Part shown: in pieces, positions 162-39,068 of the stretch
Layout of the letters: every line of letters starts with the position of its first letter
How positions within the stretch are numbered: the stretch's first letter is position 1
From: Escherichia coli
Lineage (GTDB): Bacteria; Pseudomonadota; Gammaproteobacteria; Enterobacterales; Enterobacteriaceae
Length of the DNA: 64,000 nucleotides
Strand: one strand, 5' to 3'
NCBI RefSeq assembly: GCF_003790525.1
Contig: NZ_CP033635.1
Notes under the pieces: model-generated
What the model was told of the DNA's origin: nothing
The model's input: the letters and a program-made list of their open reading frames with translations, nothing else
The model's database searches: none
Made by a program: the position numbers and the translations under genes

Positions 162-187
162 CGGTGTAGTTAATGGTGTAGTTAATT
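162..187. repeat. attL core (CGGTGTAGTTAATGGTGTAGTTAATT)
   Basis: 26/26 identical to 10978-11003. It abuts the integrase gene start. Confidence 0.8.
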
Positions 188-1438
188 GTGATGACCGGAT
201 TCAAAATTATGAGCAGAGCACTTAACAAGCTGAGCGATACACAGCTAAGGAAAATCAACGGCACACCCGCCCAAAAAACAGCCTTTCTTAATGACGGTGG
301 AAACTTGAGCGTCAGGCATTCAACCAGCGGCCTTTTAACCTGGTATTTCACTTACAGGGCCGGAACGGGAAGGGGGGCATCACCGGAACGCATTAAGCTG
401 GGAAATTATCCTGATCTGAGCCTGAAATCAGCCAGGGAAAAAGCCGCCCAGTGTCGCGCATGGCTGGCTGAGGGGAAAAATCCACGTCATGAGATGAATT
501 ACACCGTACAGGAAGCGTTAAAGCCTGTAACGGTTGGCGATGCGCTCACCTACTGGCTTGAGTCGTACGCAAAGGAAAACCGTGTGGATTATGACCCACT
601 GAAAAAGCGGCTAAATAATCACGTAATACAGCACATTGGCCCTATGCCGCTGGATAAATGCGAGCTACGGCACTGGCTGGCCTGTTTTGATCGGGTGGCA
701 AAGCAAGCCCCTGTTTCCGCCGGGTTCCTGCTACAGACATGCAAACAGGCGCTTAAGTTCTGCCGGAAGCGGCGCTATGCAATCAGCAACGTTCTTGATG
801 ATATGAGTGTGGCTGACGTTGGGAAAAAACCGGATATAGGCGAACGTGTCTTAAGCACCAAAGAACTGGGCCAATTATTGCAGGCACTGGACAAAAAAAT
901 ATTTTCCCCTTACTACGTCGCACTAATCCGCCTCCTGATTGTCTTCGGATGCCGGACAGTAGAACTGAGGCTATCGGAGATCGGGGAGTGGGATTTTACC
1001 GAAATGCTCTGGACCGTTCCGAAGGAGCACAGCAAAACGAAGGTAGCCATATTCCGGCCCATACCGGAAGCGATACTGCCGTTCGTCACGCAGCTGGTGG
1101 AGCAGAACAGGCACACGGACTTATTGCTGGGGGAAGTGAAACAGGAAACCAGCGTGTCGCAGTACGGCAGATTAGTGCACAGGAGGCTTAAACACCCTCA
1201 CTGGTCACTGCATGACATCCGGCGCACCTTTACAACGATGCTGAACGATTTAGGCGTGGATCCTCACGTCGTGGAGCAGCTTACAGGCCACCAGATGCCA
1301 GGAATGCAGCGAGTTTATAATCATTCCCGTTATCTGGATGCGAAACGCAATGCGCTGGATATGTGGGTGGAGCGGTTGGAGATACTGGCGGGAGCACATG
1401 AAAACGTAACCACGCTACCAGTAGCCAGAAGAAAATAA
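188..1438 (+). CDS. P4-family tyrosine integrase (the real start may be the Met at 209)
   Basis: 416-aa ORF. The N-terminus (MSRALNKLSDTQLRK) resembles the DUF4102 arm-binding type. The C-terminus has HDIRRTF ... GHQMPGMQRVYNHSRY, the catalytic R/H-x-x-R/Y pattern. Confidence 0.9.
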   Translation: MMTGFKIMSRALNKLSDTQLRKINGTPAQKTAFLNDGGNLSVRHSTSGLLTWYFTYRAGTGRGASPERIKLGNYPDLSLKSAREKAAQCRAWLAEGKNPRHEMNYTVQEALKPVTVGDALTYWLESYAKENRVDYDPLKKRLNNHVIQHIGPMPLDKCELRHWLACFDRVAKQAPVSAGFLLQTCKQALKFCRKRRYAISNVLDDMSVADVGKKPDIGERVLSTKELGQLLQALDKKIFSPYYVALIRLLIVFGCRTVELRLSEIGEWDFTEMLWTVPKEHSKTKVAIFRPIPEAILPFVTQLVEQNRHTDLLLGEVKQETSVSQYGRLVHRRLKHPHWSLHDIRRTFTTMLNDLGVDPHVVEQLTGHQMPGMQRVYNHSRYLDAKRNALDMWVERLEILAGAHENVTTLPVARRK

Positions 1439-2001: not shown

Positions 2002-2142
2002 AAAGACTGGCGGCACACAGCCGCCACCCATCCACTAATACAGAGATTTAACCATGAAGACTGGATATACGCCCGAACAGGGGCGGGGCTTCGTTCGGCC
2101 TGGTGAAACTGAAAAACAACAAAATCGCGGTTTTTCAGACAT

Positions 2143-2170
2143 AAAAAAAGCGGCCCCGATAAGGAGCCGC
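2143..2170 (-). terminator. Minus-strand terminator
   Basis: GCGGC (2150-2154) pairs with GCCGC (2166-2170). A 7-nt plus-strand A-run at 2143-2149 gives the U-tract on the minus strand. Confidence 0.45.
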
Positions 2171-2265
2171 CTTTCTGAACAATTTACCTGCCGCGCAAAA
2201 AATGAATATGAGCAGGGGAATTATATCAACCGTGTGACGAAGCGCCACTATTGCCGGATAACAGG

Positions 2266-2294
2266 CAAAGAAAAGGCCACCTGTCACGGTGGCC
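2266..2294 (-). terminator. Minus-strand terminator just downstream of the RHH gene
   Basis: GGCCACC (2275-2281) pairs with GGTGGCC (2288-2294). The plus-strand AAAGAAAA before the stem gives UUUUCUUU on the minus strand. Confidence 0.55.
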
Positions 2295-2325
2295 AATGTG
2301 ATCAGTGTGGTGGCTTGCTGGTGGG

Positions 2326-2505
2326 CTATTCCTGCTCTTTGGCCTTGCGCCGCTGGCGGCGTTTGATCTCGCCTTTTGCGGCAGTAACTAAAAAACCAGC
2401 GGTACTTTCGCCAGGTTCTTTAAGTTGCTCAATATCATCCATTACTTCATGTGGGATTCTGACAGTTGTCATTTGTGATTTTGCGTTCTTTGCACCAGTT
2501 GCCAT
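2326..2505 (-). CDS. Small ribbon-helix-helix-like DNA-binding protein (59 aa)
   Basis: Internal Met of the 156-aa minus ORF, with GGAG 8 nt upstream. The sequence MATGAKNAKSQMTTVRIPHEVMDDIEQLKE... has the beta-strand then helix pattern of Arc/CopG proteins and a basic tail. A terminator follows it. Confidence 0.6.
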   Translation of the reverse strand: MATGAKNAKSQMTTVRIPHEVMDDIEQLKEPGESTAGFLVTAAKGEIKRRQRRKAKEQE

Positions 2506-2571
2506 TTCTGGATCTCCTAAAAATTGGTGTATGTCAGTATACGCAAAAAAAATGATAAAAAAAGGCTTGAA

Positions 2572-2662
2572 GTGTATTTCACCAGTGAGTAAATTAAAAA
2601 GCAAAGGTGAAATACACCTGAAAGAGCAACGCCCCGCAGTGCTCGCAACACATGCAGGGCGT
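2572..2662 (+). ncRNA. Candidate structured leader / C4(CI)-like immunity RNA upstream of the Icd-like ORF
   Basis: Perfect 12-bp inverted repeat GTGTATTTCACC (2572-2583) / GGTGAAATACAC (2606-2617). A second hairpin pairs ACGCCC (2629-2634) with GGGCGT (2657-2662). The position is analogous to c4 upstream of icd in phage P1. Confidence 0.3.
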
Positions 2663-2692
2663 CTAACCAAACCGTTAAACGAGGTAACGATT

Positions 2693-2890
2693 ATGGCTGG
2701 AACACAGCATACCCCACGACTAGCGCACACACAAACCGCCTTTGTGTGGCGTTTTCTGGCACTGAGTGCCGGAGAATCCCAGATCATCCACGTCACCGCC
2801 TGGACGGAACGCGAAGCGCGTAACCGTTGCCCGTCCGGTTGTGTCGCTGTATTCGCCGCCCGTATTCGTCAGGGGGTGTGCCATGATTAA
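2693..2890 (+). CDS. Icd-like (P1/P4 cell-division-inhibitor family) small protein, 65 aa
   Basis: GAGG lies 8 nt before the ATG at 2693. FVWRF...TEREARNRCP...AVFAARIRQ resembles the Icd-like family as I recall it. It is the last 65 codons of the otherwise implausible 278-aa ORF. Confidence 0.55.
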   Translation: MAGTQHTPRLAHTQTAFVWRFLALSAGESQIIHVTAWTEREARNRCPSGCVAVFAARIRQGVCHD

Positions 2891-3251
2891 CCTGTCACTT
2901 ACCGATCTTAACCGCGTTCAGTTTCGTGAGAAATTTACCGGACAGCTACTCGTCAATGTGGAGAACGGGCGCATAGTGCGTAATTATCACCTGCCGGATG
3001 GTGCAATTGCCGGAAGCGTTGAAGCATTGCTTGAACTGGCGGAACGTGCGCGACTGATTAAGCCGTCAACGAGCCATCACGATGATGATCTGCATTTTAC
3101 CGGATGTATGGTGAGTCACTACGAAAACGGCGTCGAGGTATCCTGCGAACGGCTGCGTGATGATTGCTGTTTCGGCACACTGCCGGAATTTATCGAATTG
3201 CTGACCAGTTGCGGATATCAGGTTATTCAGGGGGTGCGCCATGTGCAATAA
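2883..3251 (+). CDS. Hypothetical protein (122 aa)
   Basis: The ATG overlaps the upstream stop and follows a GGGGG run. It lies in the co-directional operon. Confidence 0.55.
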   Translation: MINLSLTDLNRVQFREKFTGQLLVNVENGRIVRNYHLPDGAIAGSVEALLELAERARLIKPSTSHHDDDLHFTGCMVSHYENGVEVSCERLRDDCCFGTLPEFIELLTSCGYQVIQGVRHVQ

Positions 3252-3480
3252 CATCCGTCCGGACGCAGCCGCCGAAGCCATCATAACGCTAATGCACGCG
3301 CTGATTGATATTTCATGCACGGCAGCAACCGCAGAAAAACACATTACCAGAGAGCCGGAATATACAGGGGCAATAATCCCGCATTTGCTGGCCTACGCAC
3401 AGCTTACCGCTGATATGGCGCTGAATGAGGCCAAAGCTATCCTGATTGCTGATTGTGAAAATGGGGGGGGTTATGCGTGA
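3241..3480 (+). CDS. Hypothetical protein (79 aa)
   Basis: Overlapping start preceded by the same TCAGGGGGTG(C/T)GCCATG junction as the previous gene. Confidence 0.5.
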   Translation: MCNNIRPDAAAEAIITLMHALIDISCTAATAEKHITREPEYTGAIIPHLLAYAQLTADMALNEAKAILIADCENGGGYA

Positions 3481-3712
3481 TGATCGTTTTAATTCCCTGA
3501 AACAGGAATTTTCCGGCGTATCTGATGATGCGAGTGATGCGCTTTCGTCAATATCCGAACTGATAAGAGCGGCATTTTTCTTACTTGGCACGAAAGAAAA
3601 TAAAAAAACGGGGTTTGATGTACTAAATATCACCGCTGATTATGCGGAATATGTGTCAGAAGTCGATTTAAGAAAAATCCCGAATTGTCGCGGCATTAAT
3701 AACGCTTCTTGA
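3473..3712 (+). CDS. Hypothetical protein (79 aa)
   Basis: ATG at 3473 after a GGGGGGGG run, overlapping the previous stop. Confidence 0.45.
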   Translation: MRDDRFNSLKQEFSGVSDDASDALSSISELIRAAFFLLGTKENKKTGFDVLNITADYAEYVSEVDLRKIPNCRGINNAS

Positions 3713-3790: not shown

Positions 3791-4078
3791 ATGAGACTTA
3801 AATATTCTGGCTTAACTGCCAGTGGCAAAACTCGCACTAAATTCATGCGCGGCGATATTTACCGCGATAAGTACGGCGGCACGGTAACGATTAAAGGCGT
3901 GGAGGAACGGCGCATCACTTACCGCCGTGAAGGCTACGAATATGACTGCGTTATGCCTGTTTATCAGTTCCGGCGTGATTTCACGCTGGTGGGCCATCGT
4001 AAAGCCGTTAATCAGAAACGTGCTGCAAGTTATATCCGCAAAATCCGTGAAATGCTGGTCGCAGGGGGTAAGAAATGA
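3791..4078 (+). CDS. Hypothetical protein (95 aa)
   Basis: GGAGA lies 10 nt upstream. The stop overlaps the replicase start (ATGA at 4075-4078). Confidence 0.5.
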   Translation: MRLKYSGLTASGKTRTKFMRGDIYRDKYGGTVTIKGVEERRITYRREGYEYDCVMPVYQFRRDFTLVGHRKAVNQKRAASYIRKIREMLVAGGKK

Positions 4079-5481
4079 AACTTGCACCGAACGTAAAACT
4101 GTTACCGAAAGATAAACACACTGAGGCGGTTATTTTTGCGGGTGATAATGCTCACTCCTTTGCAGAACATTACATGATTGCACAGGCCAAAAAAGCAGGC
4201 GATCCCATCCCTCCGGTTTATCTGGGCCGTTATCAGTTAAGCGAACTGGACAACTTACAGATTGTTGATGAAGGACGATACAGGGTAAAGGTCATACGCG
4301 CCGGAAACCTGGACGATATGCAGATGCTGACCATTGCCACAAAACTGGCGATCGCCGGAGTCCAGGAGGCGCGGCTACTTTCTGAAAATTTCGAACTGCT
4401 GGAGGACTGGAGCGACCAGCTACCACGACTACGGGAAACATGGGAGAGAGGGGAAAGCCTGGTCATGAATGGCGGAAAGCGAAAAATCACACTTCCCATC
4501 TCATGGGGTTCTGAGGGATTCGACGCGCAGCAAAGCTACGTAATTAAGGGGCTTATTCCGGCTGAATCATTATGCAGCACCTACGGGGCCAGCGGTTCCT
4601 ATAAATCGTTCCTCGCTATTTCCTGGTCGTGCCATGTTGCCACAGGTATGGCATGGGGAGGCCGCAGGGTAAGTAAGGGGGCGGTTATCTATATCGCTGG
4701 TGAAGGCAGCATGGGCGTAAAACGCCGCGTTAAGGCGTGGGAGATAACCCACGACAAGGTGGTTACAGATTTGTGCATCATTAACGCGCCTGTTTTCCCT
4801 GCATCGCCTGACTATGTGGAGCAGGTTATCAGGACTGCCGGACTTGTTAAGAGCAGAACGGGCGAAAATGTGCGGCTGATTGTGATCGACACACTGGCCC
4901 GTTGCTTTGGTGGGAATGATGAAAATGATTCCCGTGATATGGGCGCATTTATCCAGGGGTGTGACGCGATAAAGCAGGCCACAGGGGCCACGGTGCTGGT
5001 GGTTCACCATTCCGGCAAGGATGAAACAAAGGGGGCGCGTGGTTCCAGTGCATTCCGTGCCGCGCTTGATGCAGAGTACCGAATCAGCAGGGAAAATTCA
5101 GACGTTACAGCACTGGTGGCGGCGTGTACGAAGATGAAGGACGCAGAGGAGCCAAAAGAGAGTGCATACGACCTTAAAAGCGTGGAGGTGTTCACCGATA
5201 CAGATGGCGAAGAAATTGTGTCCATGGTGGTGATTGACGTTCCCCGCGCCCCTGCTGAACTGGAGCGCATCGAGGAGGCAGGCAACAAGACGGAAAACCA
5301 TACCGCGCTATGGGGGTGCATCCGTTCACGCACACAGAACGGCGACAAGTGCACGATCCCGCTGTTACGTGATGACATGAAACGGCTTGGGTATGACGTG
5401 AAAAATATGCGGCGATGGTTAGCCAAACTGGAAAAAGACGCCGTGATTTACATTGATGGTGATGATGTAGGACCACTGTAA
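4075..5481 (+). CDS. RecA-fold replicative ATPase (AAA_25/RepA-like helicase; island replicase)
   Basis: Walker A is GASGSYKS, Walker B is LIVIDTLARCFGGNDEND, and VLVVHHSGKDETKGARGSSA is also present. An iteron array follows immediately. Confidence 0.8.
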   Translation: MKLAPNVKLLPKDKHTEAVIFAGDNAHSFAEHYMIAQAKKAGDPIPPVYLGRYQLSELDNLQIVDEGRYRVKVIRAGNLDDMQMLTIATKLAIAGVQEARLLSENFELLEDWSDQLPRLRETWERGESLVMNGGKRKITLPISWGSEGFDAQQSYVIKGLIPAESLCSTYGASGSYKSFLAISWSCHVATGMAWGGRRVSKGAVIYIAGEGSMGVKRRVKAWEITHDKVVTDLCIINAPVFPASPDYVEQVIRTAGLVKSRTGENVRLIVIDTLARCFGGNDENDSRDMGAFIQGCDAIKQATGATVLVVHHSGKDETKGARGSSAFRAALDAEYRISRENSDVTALVAACTKMKDAEEPKESAYDLKSVEVFTDTDGEEIVSMVVIDVPRAPAELERIEEAGNKTENHTALWGCIRSRTQNGDKCTIPLLRDDMKRLGYDVKNMRRWLAKLEKDAVIYIDGDDVGPL

Positions 5482-17890: not shown

Positions 17891-19141
17891 ATGGAAAGTA
17901 AAGTAGTTGTTCCGGCACAAGGCAAGAAGATCACCCTGCAAAACGGCAAACTCAACGTTCCTGAAAATCCGATTATCCCTTACATTGAAGGTGATGGAAT
18001 CGGTGTAGATGTAACCCCAGCCATGCTGAAAGTGGTCGACGCTGCAGTCGAGAAAGCCTATAAAGGCGAGCGTAAAATCTCCTGGATGGAAATTTACACC
18101 GGTGAAAAATCCACACAGGTTTATGGTCAGGATGTCTGGCTACCTGCTGAAACCCTTGATCTGATTCGTGAATATCGCGTTGCCATCAAAGGCCCGCTGA
18201 CCACTCCGGTTGGTGGCGGTATTCGCTCTCTCAACGTTGCTCTGCGCCAGGAACTGGATCTCTACATCTGCCTGCGTCCGGTACGTTACTATCAGGGCAC
18301 TCCAAGCCCGGTTAAACACCCTGAACTGACCGATATGGTTATCTTCCGTGAAAACTCGGAAGACATTTATGCGGGTATCGAATGGAAAGCAGACTCTGCC
18401 GACGCTGAGAAAGTGATTAAATTCCTGCGTGAAGAGATGGGCGTGAAGAAAATTCGCTTCCCGGAACATTGCGGTATCGGTATTAAGCCGTGTTCTGAAG
18501 AAGGCACCAAACGTCTGGTTCGTGCAGCGATCGAATACGCAATTGCTAACGATCGTGACTCTGTGACCCTGGTGCACAAAGGCAACATCATGAAGTTCAC
18601 CGAAGGCGCGTTTAAAGACTGGGGCTACCAGCTGGCGCGTGAAGAGTTTGGCGGTGAACTGATCGACGGCGGCCCGTGGCTGAAAGTTAAAAACCCGAAC
18701 ACCGGCAAAGAGATCGTCATTAAAGACGTGATTGCTGATGCATTCCTGCAACAGATCCTGCTGCGTCCGGCTGAATATGATGTTATCGCCTGTATGAACC
18801 TGAACGGTGACTACATTTCTGACGCCCTGGCAGCGCAGGTTGGCGGTATCGGTATCGCCCCTGGCGCAAACATCGGTGACGAATGCGCCCTGTTTGAAGC
18901 CACCCACGGTACTGCGCCGAAATATGCCGGTCAGGACAAAGTAAACCCAGGCTCTATTATTCTCTCCGCTGAGATGATGTTACGCCATATGGGTTGGACT
19001 GAAGCCGCAGACCTGATTGTTAAAGGTATGGAAGGCGCGATCAACGCGAAGACTGTAACCTATGACTTCGAACGTCTGATGGAAGGCGCTAAACTGCTGA
19101 AATGTTCAGAGTTTGGTGATGCGATCATCAAGAACATGTAA
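17891..19141 (+). CDS. icd: Isocitrate dehydrogenase (NADP), intact with no e14 insertion
   Basis: 416 aa, full length, ending [10 protein letters not shown]. Confidence 0.97.
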
Positions 19142-38736: not shown

Positions 38737-39068
38737 AATCATTCGCCTCTTTAAATATATAAATTGTAATGAAACTCCTGTTTTACAACTATTAAAGAAT
38801 TTTACATCATCTAATTCATAGTTAGCCGGGCGGGATGCGTCAATGTCTTTATTTCTATTAATATGATAAATATCAAACAATGTTTAATGTCATTATGGCT
38901 GATGCTTCTATTCTATTTTTTAGCCGGGTGATATTTTTCATTTCTGCTGGATGAGCGTCGTCGCCAGAAGGCGCGTGAGCACAGGATAAGATAACGAAAA
39001 ATCAGCAGTCTATGCAGCGACAAATATTGATAGCCTGAATCAGTATTGATCTGCTGGTAAGAACAGAC

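What the first reader, a model, noticed from the sequence alone, without database searches (positions are those of the whole stretch)
2506..2890. Structured leader upstream of an Icd-like ORF: a possible C4/CI-type antisense-RNA immunity module
In phages P1 and P7 the c4 antisense RNA lies immediately upstream of icd-ant, and in P4 the related CI RNA lies in the leader of the replication operon. Both are processed structured RNAs that set immunity. Here a 65-aa ORF with an Icd-like signature (FVWRF...TEREAR...VFAARI) is preceded by a 188-nt leader. The leader holds a perfect 12-bp stem (2572-2583 / 2606-2617, 22-nt A-rich loop) and a second hairpin (2629-2662). A small RHH gene is transcribed divergently. 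The replicase and ori lie downstream in the same operon. This could therefore be the switch that keeps the island quiescent. I could not find the expected loop-to-target complementarities by eye, so the call is tentative.
Basis: inference. Interest (0 to 1): 0.55.

Follow-up and report, generated by a model that had tools for sequence, protein, structure and literature searches.

The report
Repressor operator plus antisense RNA switch
The supposed P1/P4-type "C4" leader RNA is not there; the region instead looks like a repressor-controlled promoter followed by a conserved, undescribed small RNA on the opposite strand that covers the ribosome-binding site of the first gene of a phage satellite's replication operon.

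Summary
The sequence features are real. The 65-aa ORF (2693-2890) is Icd-like (NCBIfam NF033153, 64.9 bits). The divergent 59-aa gene has a ribbon-helix-helix (RHH) fold.

The C4/CI reading fails. No C4, IsrK or c4-a1b1 match appears at E<=10, although the same Rfam scan finds true C4 RNAs in three related loci. No loop-to-RBS complementarity exceeds shuffles.

The "12-bp stem" is best read as two copies of a 13-bp operator flanking the -10 of a sigma-70 promoter. A third copy lies on the RHH gene's own -10. In relatives the operator sequence changes together with the divergent regulator.

The second hairpin is conserved and covaries, but it folds on the minus strand:
- Stem cells give 462 Watson-Crick plus 70 G-U pairs on the minus strand, against 1 G-U and 76 mismatches on the plus strand.
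- On the minus strand a U-rich tract follows it, as in an intrinsic terminator.
- A 5' hairpin precedes it, with the anti-Shine-Dalgarno sequence in its loop.
- Upstream, inside icd codons 5-14, lies a conserved TTGTGT-N17-TATGCT.

The inferred product is a ~80-nt cis-antisense RNA (about 2698 to 2620) that blocks icd-like translation. It is absent from Rfam and present in about 23% of complete E. coli genomes. Expression is untested.

The parts
2326..2505 (-). 59-aa ribbon-helix-helix gene (YlcI/YnfO family); the presumed repressor of the divergent promoters
2275..2294 (-). Terminator-like hairpin plus T run that ends the RHH gene's transcript
   Evidence: Scan. A weak isrD-like terminator hit also appears.
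2526..2538 (.). Operator copy O3 (GGTGTATGTCAGT). It overlaps a TATACT -10 (minus strand, 2541..2536) for the RHH gene, so autoregulation is likely.
   Evidence: The site is conserved as GGTGTATTTCAGT in L076/L072 while the flanks differ. The promoter is read from the sequence (inference).
2567..2595 (+). Predicted sigma-70 promoter of the icd-like operon: TTGAAG (2567-2572), 17-nt spacer, TAAATT (2590-2595). The start would be near 2602.
   Evidence: Read from the sequence. The same geometry, with TTGACA/TTGACG -35 boxes, recurs in about 20 related loci. It scores 8 of 12, below the threshold of the scan.
2571..2583 (.). Operator copy O1 (AGTGTATTTCACC), in the promoter spacer.
2606..2618 (.). 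Operator copy O2 (GGTGAAATACACC, the reverse complement of GGTGTATTTCACC), at about +4 to +16. This is the right arm of the 12-bp stem.
2612..2700 (-). Conserved antisense RNA element. The predicted ~80-nt RNA runs from about 2698-2700 down to about 2620.
   Evidence: Covariance model R1 gives 96.6 bits on the minus strand and only 17 bits on the plus strand. The element is found ending 8 nt inside the ORF in essentially every related locus. No Rfam family matches.
2628..2663 (-). GC-rich terminator hairpin of the antisense RNA (-24.2 kcal/mol), followed by the U-rich tract 2627..2620 (UUGCUCUUUC).
   Evidence: 96.6% of stem cells are paired, with 5-6 pairs showing compensatory changes. At true pairs the G-U to A-C ratio is 67:1.
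2665..2698 (-). 5' hairpin of the antisense RNA. Its loop (2684..2678, CCUCGUU) is the anti-Shine-Dalgarno sequence, and its stem covers the AUG.
   Evidence: a 5' hairpin is predicted in nearly all of the 30 variants (29 of 30), with the CCUC/CUCC anti-SD in its loop in most.
2706..2734 (-). Predicted promoter of the antisense RNA inside icd codons 5-14: -35 TTGTGT (2734..2729), 17-nt spacer, -10 TATGCT (2711..2706)
   Evidence: T, A and the final T of the -10 are invariant in 30 variants. The 17-nt spacer occurs in five unrelated sequences. The promoter is retained in icd remnants that end just past the -35. It scores only 7 of 12 against consensus and has not been tested.
2693..2890 (+). 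Icd-like ORF (65 aa), with SD GAGG at 2682-2685. Its stop overlaps the next ORF's start (ATGATTAA, 2883-2890).
   Evidence: NF033153 64.9 bits. phrog_29966, E = 1.6e-32. 111 homologues.

Best explanation
The region 2506-2734 is read as a two-layer switch at the head of the replication operon of a 10.8-kb phage satellite.

Layer 1 (DNA):
- The divergent RHH protein binds three copies of a 13-bp site, GGTGTATTTCACC.
- Two copies bracket the -10 of the icd-operon promoter. They form the '12-bp stem'.
- The third copy lies on the RHH gene's own -10. The protein would therefore repress the operon and autoregulate.

Layer 2 (RNA):
- A promoter inside the first codons of the icd-like ORF fires on the minus strand.
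- It would make a ~80-nt RNA with a 5' hairpin that shows the anti-Shine-Dalgarno sequence in its loop, followed by a GC-rich intrinsic terminator.
- This RNA is fully complementary to the SD, the AUG and the 5' leader of the icd-like mRNA. It would block ribosome binding.
- Because the downstream ORFs overlap (ATGATTAA), the block would be polar on the operon.

Shown: the sequence elements, the minus-strand structure and its covariation, and the co-variation of operators with regulators.
Inferred: transcription from the minus-strand promoter, DNA binding by the RHH protein, and the effect on translation.
For: RNA strand and structure:
- In 30 distinct variants the stems give 462 Watson-Crick, 70 G-U and 7 other cells on the minus strand, against 462, 1 and 76 on the plus strand.
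- The G-U to A-C ratio is 67:1 at true pairs and about 2.4:1 in slid controls.
- 97.1% of cells are paired, and 0 of 500 shuffles reach the observed covariation score.
- In 36 distinct model hits the terminator helix is 96.6% paired, with 6 compensatory pairs.
- The consensus fold is -24.6 kcal/mol on the minus strand and -11.0 on the plus strand.
- The minus-strand MFE (minimum free energy) is lower than the plus-strand MFE in all 30 sequences.
- A T-rich tract follows the hairpin on the minus strand in every variant.
- The anti-SD lies in the 5' hairpin loop in most of the three sequence variants' members.

Antisense promoter:
- The TAnnnT core is invariant. The 17-nt spacer occurs in five different sequences.
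- An icd remnant in L076-type loci keeps exactly the RNA plus this promoter.

Operator:
- There are three copies.
- In related loci a different repeat sits at the same place beside a different regulator. The window and L076 share both the protein and the sites but differ in the spacer.
- The protein has an RHH fold.

Distribution:
- The element is in 1235 of 5426 complete E. coli genomes.
- It is in 106 plasmids.
- It is present in the characterised cf-PICI (capsid-forming phage-inducible chromosomal island) EcCIEDL933.
Against: - There is no expression evidence of any kind.
- The minus-strand promoter is weak by consensus, 7-8 of 12, and is not reported by the scan.
- Its conserved bases lie in codons (His, Thr-Gln), so protein constraint is a partial confounder.
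- The icd-remnant argument rests on one lineage.
- In this window the terminator's U tract is interrupted (UUGCUCUUUC).
- The inner stem of the 5' hairpin changes register between variants, so column-wise statistics for it are poor (81% paired).
- The plus-strand promoter also scores only 8 of 12.
- RHH binding to the repeats is untested.
- Published work attributes induction of these islands to AlpA and describes no repressor (PMC6092414; 10.1101/2022.09.08.507074).
Confidence: 0.6

Rival explanations
1. First reader's model. The plus-strand leader encodes a C4 (P1/P7) or CI (P4) type processed RNA. Its loops pair with the icd-like RBS region of the same transcript.
For: - Icd-like genes elsewhere do have a C4 RNA just upstream. 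In L069 a C4 (72 bits) lies about 50 nt before a second Icd-like ORF.
- N-extended homologues hit Pfam Phage_ASH.
- The plus strand folds better than shuffles.
Against: - No C4, IsrK or c4-a1b1 hit appears at E<=10, with a positive control in relatives.
- The extended translation of this leader has no Phage_ASH hit.
- No loop-to-TIR complementarity exceeds shuffles.
- The left arm of stem 1 lies in a promoter spacer.
- Stem 2 has C-A and A-C mismatches on the plus strand in most variants.
Confidence: 0.03
2. The conserved minus-strand element is not a free antisense RNA. It would be a terminator or attenuator in a longer minus-strand transcript. That transcript would either insulate the repressor/operator region from antisense transcription, or serve as a leader that lets the promoter inside icd drive the RHH gene, as lambda P_RE does.
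For: - The RHH gene lies directly downstream on the same strand.
- The U tract in this window is imperfect, so read-through is plausible.
- In L076-type loci the element plus promoter persists upstream of an RHH gene without an intact icd.
Against: - The RHH gene has its own -10 with an operator copy on it.
- The 5' hairpin that places the anti-SD in its loop, and the exact end of the element 8 nt inside the ORF in all loci, are not needed for a mere terminator.
- In EDL933-type and other loci the U tract is strong: UUUGCUUUUUU.
Confidence: 0.2
3. The hairpin acts in cis in the plus-strand icd mRNA, for example as a stabiliser, an RNase III site or a binding site for a translational repressor. 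Alternatively it acts as a DNA palindrome bound by a protein.
For: The hairpin lies in the predicted 5' UTR. It still forms on the plus strand at -17.5 kcal/mol. Arms of DNA palindromes also co-vary.
Against: - The 67:1 excess of G-U over A-C at paired positions is specific to the minus-strand RNA. Neither a plus-strand RNA nor duplex DNA predicts it.
- The T tract is on the minus strand only.
- The stem sequence changes freely while pairing is kept, unlike a protein-recognition site.
Confidence: 0.07
4. The module is mainly a type I toxin-antitoxin-like safeguard, resembling symE/symR. The antisense RNA would only prevent leaky synthesis of a toxic cell-division inhibitor, and would not control the satellite's life cycle.
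For: - The architecture matches symR: a promoter inside the target's 5' codons and an RNA that covers the SD and AUG (own knowledge of symE/symR).
- The target belongs to the family named after P1 Icd, a division inhibitor.
Against: - icd-like is translationally coupled to a replication operon.
- The module also heads other cargo, such as a BrxR/BREX cluster on an IncY plasmid.
- Toxicity of this Icd-like protein is unknown.
- This reading overlaps with the best explanation and does not exclude it.
Confidence: 0.1

Closest known systems
Phage P22 immI region (Mnt and Arc RHH repressors, Pant, sar antisense RNA)
   Different: The target is an Icd-like gene at the head of a satellite replication operon, not an antirepressor. 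There is no sequence similarity. The antisense promoter lies inside the target ORF rather than in an intercistronic gap.
Phage P1/P7 immI (c4 RNA - icd - ant) and P4 CI RNA; Rfam C4 RF01695
   Same: An Icd-family ORF is the first translated gene, and its translation is the point controlled by an RNA. Downstream genes depend on it by coupling or polarity (own knowledge of P1).
   Different: C4 and CI are encoded on the same strand as the target, are processed from the leader and act through short loop complementarities. Here the RNA is cis-encoded on the opposite strand and fully complementary. The C4 model does not match, although it matches relatives.
E. coli symE/symR (type I toxin-antitoxin-like pair)
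   Same: The antisense RNA is about 77 nt, its promoter is embedded in the 5' codons of the target, and it covers the SD and AUG. The target promoter is additionally under a DNA-binding repressor (own knowledge).
   Different: There is no sequence relation. The repressor here is a locus-specific RHH protein rather than LexA. The target heads an operon.
R1162/RSF1010 plasmid countertranscript (Rfam RF00043)
   Same: A hairpin lies next to the RBS of a replication-operon gene. There is a weak model match at 2627-2700 (19.9 bits, E = 0.88).
   Different: The score is far below the gathering score of 55. The match is on the plus strand and is not significant.
Gram-negative PICI and cf-PICI regulation by AlpA (EcCICFT073, EcCIEDL933)
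   Same: The island type is the same: int, alpA, an Icd-like ORF, DUF4222 and a replicase. The element is present in EcCIEDL933 itself.
   Different: Published work describes only the AlpA activator. [quoted passage not shown] The RHH/operator/antisense module is not described there.

Membership tests
C4 antisense RNA (Rfam RF01695; clan with IsrK) / P4 CI RNA | Match to the family covariance model | tested here: not met
   There is no hit at E<=10 over 2200-3100 on either strand, and none at gathering score in the 64-kb window. As a positive control, C4 scores 71.6-72.7 bits in L068, L069 and L078.
C4 antisense RNA (Rfam RF01695; clan with IsrK) / P4 CI RNA | Loop sequences (a', b') complementary to sites at the target RBS on the same transcript | tested here: not met
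   RNAduplex of the plus-strand loops and hairpins against 2668-2710 is no better than 500 shuffles.
C4 antisense RNA (Rfam RF01695; clan with IsrK) / P4 CI RNA | Processed stable RNA released from the leader (RNase P dependent) | not testable with these tools
   This needs Northern blotting or RNA-seq.
Icd-like protein (NCBIfam NF033153) | HMM score above the curated cut-off | tested here: met
   64.9 bits against a cut-off of 25, E = 4.9e-18, residues 17-60.
Icd-like protein (NCBIfam NF033153) | Inhibition of host cell division | not testable with these tools
   The function is known only for P1 Icd. There are no data for this clade.
Cis-encoded antisense RNA (sar / SymR / ctRNA type) | Stem-loop(s) plus an intrinsic terminator that fold on the strand opposite the target | tested here: met
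   Pairing, covariation and G-U asymmetry are specific to the minus strand, and a U-rich tract follows the hairpin.
Cis-encoded antisense RNA (sar / SymR / ctRNA type) | Overlap with the target's SD and start codon | tested here: met
   The element spans 2612-2700. The SD is at 2682-2685 and the AUG at 2693-2695. The anti-SD lies in the hairpin loop.
Cis-encoded antisense RNA (sar / SymR / ctRNA type) | Own promoter and an actual transcript | tested here: inconclusive
   TTGTGT-N17-TATGCT is conserved, with variable spacers and an invariant TAnnnT. It is weak by consensus, lies in codons, and there is no transcript evidence.
R1162-like plasmid antisense RNA (Rfam RF00043) | Match to the covariance model at gathering score | tested here: not met
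   19.9 bits against 55, E = 0.88, on the plus strand.
Ribbon-helix-helix repressor with repeated operators (Arc/Mnt/CopG type) | RHH fold | tested here: met
Ribbon-helix-helix repressor with repeated operators (Arc/Mnt/CopG type) | Repeated binding sites overlapping the regulated promoters, specific to the cognate protein | tested here: met
   Three copies overlap the two promoters. The operator sequence co-varies with the regulator across about 20 locus types. Binding itself was not tested.
YlcI/YnfO family (NCBIfam NF041551) | HMM score above the curated cut-off | tested here: met
   64 bits against a cut-off of 30.

The most novel reading that the evidence does not exclude
The module would be the missing quiescence and immunity switch of Gram-negative PICIs and cf-PICIs. 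A family of small RHH repressors with type-specific operators would define satellite 'immunity groups'. A universal, undescribed cis-antisense RNA would gate translation of the Icd-like leader gene and, by polarity, the whole replication operon. The same cassette would have been recruited to head other cargo, such as BREX on P1-type plasmids.
Probability: 0.35. Interest if true: 0.75.

Novelty: new variant of a known kind. Interest (0 to 1): 0.6.

Why it matters
Published work on Gram-negative phage-inducible islands names only the activator AlpA. It states that a global repressor has not been identified (PMC6092414). A conserved repressor/operator pair plus an antisense RNA at the head of the replication operon would give that question a concrete, testable candidate. 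The module is present in the experimentally used EcCIEDL933 and in roughly a quarter of complete E. coli genomes.

The result also adds an RNA family that Rfam lacks. It shows that near-identical Icd-like genes are controlled by two unrelated RNA devices: same-strand C4 and opposite-strand antisense. In some relatives both occur in tandem.

In practice, genome annotation currently covers this region with spurious long ORFs and misses both the RHH gene and the RNA.

Tried and rejected
- Rfam at a permissive threshold gave only chance-level hits: isrD-like terminator 22 bits, R1162 19.9 bits, ToxI, SAM-II.
- Pfam gave nothing for the Icd-like ORF and only sub-threshold hits for the RHH protein.
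- The genome-contig scan with the Icd-like alignment returned only 2 loci. The IMG/VR scan supplied the comparative set.
- tblastn of the Icd-like protein against phages found one record, so P1 Icd itself is too distant to retrieve.
- Literature searches found no description of the RNA or of the regulator's function. The terms tried were Icd-like plus antisense, PICI plus antisense RNA, SpLE2 plus sRNA, and YlcI/YnfO/DUF3950.
- The consensus promoter scan reports neither of the two promoters proposed here, because both fall below its 9-of-12 rule.
- Column-wise covariation for the inner stem of the 5' hairpin is unreliable, because the bulge changes side between variants. I relied on per-sequence folds instead.
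- I considered reading the 12-bp repeat as an RNA stem and rejected it. Its left arm lies between the -35 and the -10. Relatives replace both arms together with the regulator and keep them when only the spacer changes.

Full report
CONTEXT

The window begins with a 10.8-kb integrated element. It is bounded by direct repeats of GGTGTAGTTAAT x2 at 163-190 and 10979-11002. Its genes, in order, are:
- a tyrosine integrase (188-1438) and AlpA (1813-2001);
- a small minus-strand gene (2505..2326);
- an operon of short overlapping ORFs that starts at 2693;
- a DUF4222 protein and an AAA_25 replicative helicase (4075-5481);
- an SSB and a ClpP-capsid fusion (7608-9524).

The chromosomal genes phoQ-phoP-purB...icd follow. 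This is the gene set of Gram-negative PICI and cf-PICI satellites. The same leader and Icd-like gene occur in the prototype cf-PICI EcCIEDL933 (10.1101/2022.09.08.507074).

THE OBSERVATION

- The 12-nt inverted repeat 2572-2583 / 2606-2617 is perfect.
- A second hairpin has arms at 2629-2638 / 2653-2662.
- The ORF 2693-2890 encodes 65 aa and is preceded by GAGG. It scores 64.9 bits on NCBIfam 'phage_ICD_like', whose cut-off is 25.
- The intergenic gap is 187 nt.

THE C4/CI HYPOTHESIS FAILS ITS OWN TESTS

- cmscan of the whole window at gathering score finds only C0299, far away.
- At E<=10 over 2200-3100 there is no C4, IsrK or c4-a1b1 hit on either strand.
- This is not a sensitivity problem. 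The same library finds C4 at about 72 bits in three related loci (L068, L069, L078).
- In those loci C4 lies downstream of the homologue of this ORF and about 50 nt upstream of a second, diverged Icd-like ORF.
- Some Icd-like homologues annotated with N-terminal extensions hit Pfam Phage_ASH, which is probably a translation of such an RNA region. The extended translation of this window's leader does not.
- Plus-strand loops show no complementarity to the RBS region beyond shuffles.

THE 12-BP 'STEM' IS AN OPERATOR PAIR

- The unit is a 13-bp site, GGTGTATTTCACC, itself of the form GGTG-N5-CACC. It occurs three times: 2571-2583, 2606-2618 (inverted) and 2526-2538.
- The first two copies bracket the -10 of a TTGAAG-N17-TAAATT promoter. 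The left 'arm' would therefore not be transcribed with icd.
- The third copy overlaps a TATACT -10 for the RHH gene.
- I collected 80 related loci from IMG/VR and others from E. coli genomes, phages and plasmids.
- In every one, a sigma-70 -35 (often TTGACA or TTGACG) sits at the same distance from the conserved leader. It is followed by two copies of a locus-specific repeat on either side of the -10.
- The repeat sequence changes whenever the divergent regulator changes. Most regulators are YlcI/YnfO-like; some are Arc/HicB-like.
- The window and L076/L072 share a near-identical regulator and identical sites, including the third, but differ in the spacer between them.
- This pattern is expected of repressor-operator specificity modules, not of an RNA helix.

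THE CONSERVED HAIRPIN FOLDS ON THE OTHER STRAND

- blastn shows that 2615-2714 is conserved far beyond the flanks, even in a Klebsiella and a Morganella phage.
- Thirty distinct variants align well, and RNAalifold predicts two helices.
- Counting the same pairs on both strands gives 462 Watson-Crick, 70 G-U and 7 other on the minus strand. The plus strand gives 462, 1 and 76.
- The G-U to A-C ratio is 67:1 at the true pairs, against about 2.4:1 when partners are slid. Base composition therefore does not explain it.
- On a trimmed alignment of 27 variants, 97.1% of cells pair, five pairs change on both sides, and none of 500 shuffles reaches the covariation score.
- With 36 distinct covariance-model hits, the 3' helix is 96.6% paired with six compensatory pairs.
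- The consensus energy is -24.6 kcal/mol on the minus strand and -11.0 on the plus strand.
- In each of the 30 sequences the minus strand folds more stably.
- On the minus strand the GC-rich hairpin (2663..2628, -24.2 kcal/mol) is followed in every variant by a T-rich tract. Examples are UUGCUCUUUC here, UUUGCUUUUUU in EDL933 and UUGUUUUUUU in the Klebsiella phage. This is an intrinsic terminator. No T tract follows it on the plus strand.
- Upstream of it on the minus strand, 2698..2665 forms a hairpin. Its stem includes the complement of the AUG, and its loop is CCUCGUU, the anti-Shine-Dalgarno sequence.
- Three sequence variants of this segment exist, with different SD spacers. A 5' hairpin is predicted in nearly all of the 30 sequences (29 of 30), with CCUC/CUCC in its loop in most.

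A PROMOTER FOR THIS RNA

- Six to eight nucleotides upstream of the 5' hairpin, on the minus strand, every variant has TATGCT, TATGAT or TAGACT. The T, the A and the final T are invariant across all 30 sequences.
- Seventeen nucleotides further up lies TTGTGT, in 18 of 20 distinct upstream regions.
- The 17-nt spacer occurs in five unrelated sequences.
- In six loci a second copy of the whole module sits about 750 nt upstream. There the icd ORF has been replaced immediately after the -35 (MAIKEHSLLFIHTQT|PRK...), so the RNA and its promoter are retained but the protein is not. These copies belong to a single lineage.
- The promoter is weak by consensus (7-8 of 12) and lies within codons. This step remains an inference.

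MODEL AND DISTRIBUTION

- A covariance model of the element (R1) hits the window once, at 2612-2700 on the minus strand (96.6 bits). The plus strand scores 17 bits.
- It finds the element ending 8 nt inside the Icd-like ORF in essentially every related locus, including those BLAST missed and those that also carry C4.
- Matches to 2612-2736 occur in 1235 of 5426 complete E. coli genomes, with up to five per genome.
- Matches also occur in 106 plasmids.
- On the IncY plasmid pECO-6dfa the same cassette heads an ORF with an Icd-like N-terminus, followed by a WYL (BrxR-like) gene and a BREX system.

HOW IT MOST LIKELY WORKS

- The RHH protein represses the icd-operon promoter and its own promoter through the three sites.
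- Any mRNA that is made starts near 2602. It is fully complementary to a ~80-nt antisense RNA over its leader, SD and AUG.
- Loop-loop contact between the SD loop and the anti-SD loop would seed pairing.
- Pairing would block initiation of icd-like translation. Because the ORFs overlap (ATGATTAA at 2883-2890, and again at 3241-3251), the block would be polar on the replication genes.
- This combines the logic of P22 immI (RHH repressors plus sar RNA) with the target of P1 immI (icd as the gate). It is laid out like symE/symR.
- These comparisons rest on my own knowledge of those systems, not on tests made here.

WHAT IS NOT SHOWN

Transcription of the RNA, binding by the RHH protein, any effect on translation, and any link to AlpA-dependent induction all remain untested. 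The literature searches found no report of this RNA or of a function for the regulator family. [quoted passage not shown]

VERDICT

The C4/CI interpretation is wrong. The 12-bp stem is an operator pair. The second hairpin belongs to a conserved, undescribed opposite-strand RNA that is very probably a cis-antisense regulator of icd-like translation.

Noticed in passing
L069 3001-3652 (also L068, L078): These relatives carry two Icd-like ORFs in tandem. The first is preceded by the antisense element. The second (about 3485-3652) is preceded by a true C4 RNA (RF01695, 72 bits, 3346-3433). Two unrelated RNA regulators therefore sit side by side.
   Followed up: partly
L076 2174-2262 and 2922-3008 (also L072, L010, L063, L069, L055): Two complete RHH/operator/antisense modules lie about 750 nt apart, each with its own operator type. 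The upstream module keeps only icd codons 1-15, which is exactly the predicted antisense promoter.
   Followed up: partly
L086 (IncY plasmid pECO-6dfa) 3262-7093: The same cassette sits upstream of an ORF with an Icd-like N-terminus (MAGSQHTQTRPEFTWRFL...), a WYL-domain gene and a BREX system on a P1-type plasmid. In all, 106 plasmid records carry the element.
   Followed up: partly
window 2728-2758, + strand: A terminator-like hairpin (CACACAAA-CCGCC-TTTGTGTG followed by GCGTTTTCTG) lies inside the icd-like ORF at codons 12-22 and overlaps the predicted antisense -35. It could be a translation-sensitive attenuator, or merely a by-product of the conserved HTQTAFVWRF codons.
   Followed up: no
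window 163-190 and 10979-11002: Direct repeats (GGTGTAGTTAAT x2) bound a 10.8-kb island. It has int, alpA, a helicase, an SSB and a ClpP-capsid fusion, but no obvious portal or terminase. It is thus smaller than the 15.4-kb EcCIEDL933.
   Followed up: partly
L003 (EDL933) 2310-3053 and 2753-2944; window 2054-2890: RefSeq annotates a 247-aa plus-strand 'hypothetical protein' (EDL933_RS32265) across the regulatory region. It is probably spurious. A divergent 63-aa Arc/HicB-like ORF on the other strand is not annotated. The window has an equivalent 278-aa open frame.
   Followed up: partly
L001 342-409; L020 1116-1182: The int-alpA RNA motif (RF02996) is present in two related loci but is not detected between int and alpA in the window.
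   Followed up: no
window 2605-2619, - strand: Operator copy O2 is itself a small palindrome. On the minus strand it forms a 5-bp hairpin followed by UUUGCUUUUU, which the scan flags as terminator-like. It could back up the imperfect U tract of the main terminator in this window.
   Followed up: no
window 2693-2890 (protein): PHROGs labels two Icd-like families (phrog_1743, phrog_6196) 'transcriptional repressor', and Pfam Phage_ASH matches N-extended homologues. Both labels may stem from the old protein reading of the P4 cI/ash RNA region rather than from any tested protein function.
   Followed up: no
window 38970-39048 and 17891-19141: The only Rfam gathering-score hit in the window is the sRNA C0299 (106.7 bits). 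A 416-aa ORF at 17891-19141, at the position of the chromosomal icd (isocitrate dehydrogenase) gene after the apparent phoQ-phoP-purB run, lies about 7 kb beyond the island (gene names inferred from ORF sizes and order only).
   Followed up: no
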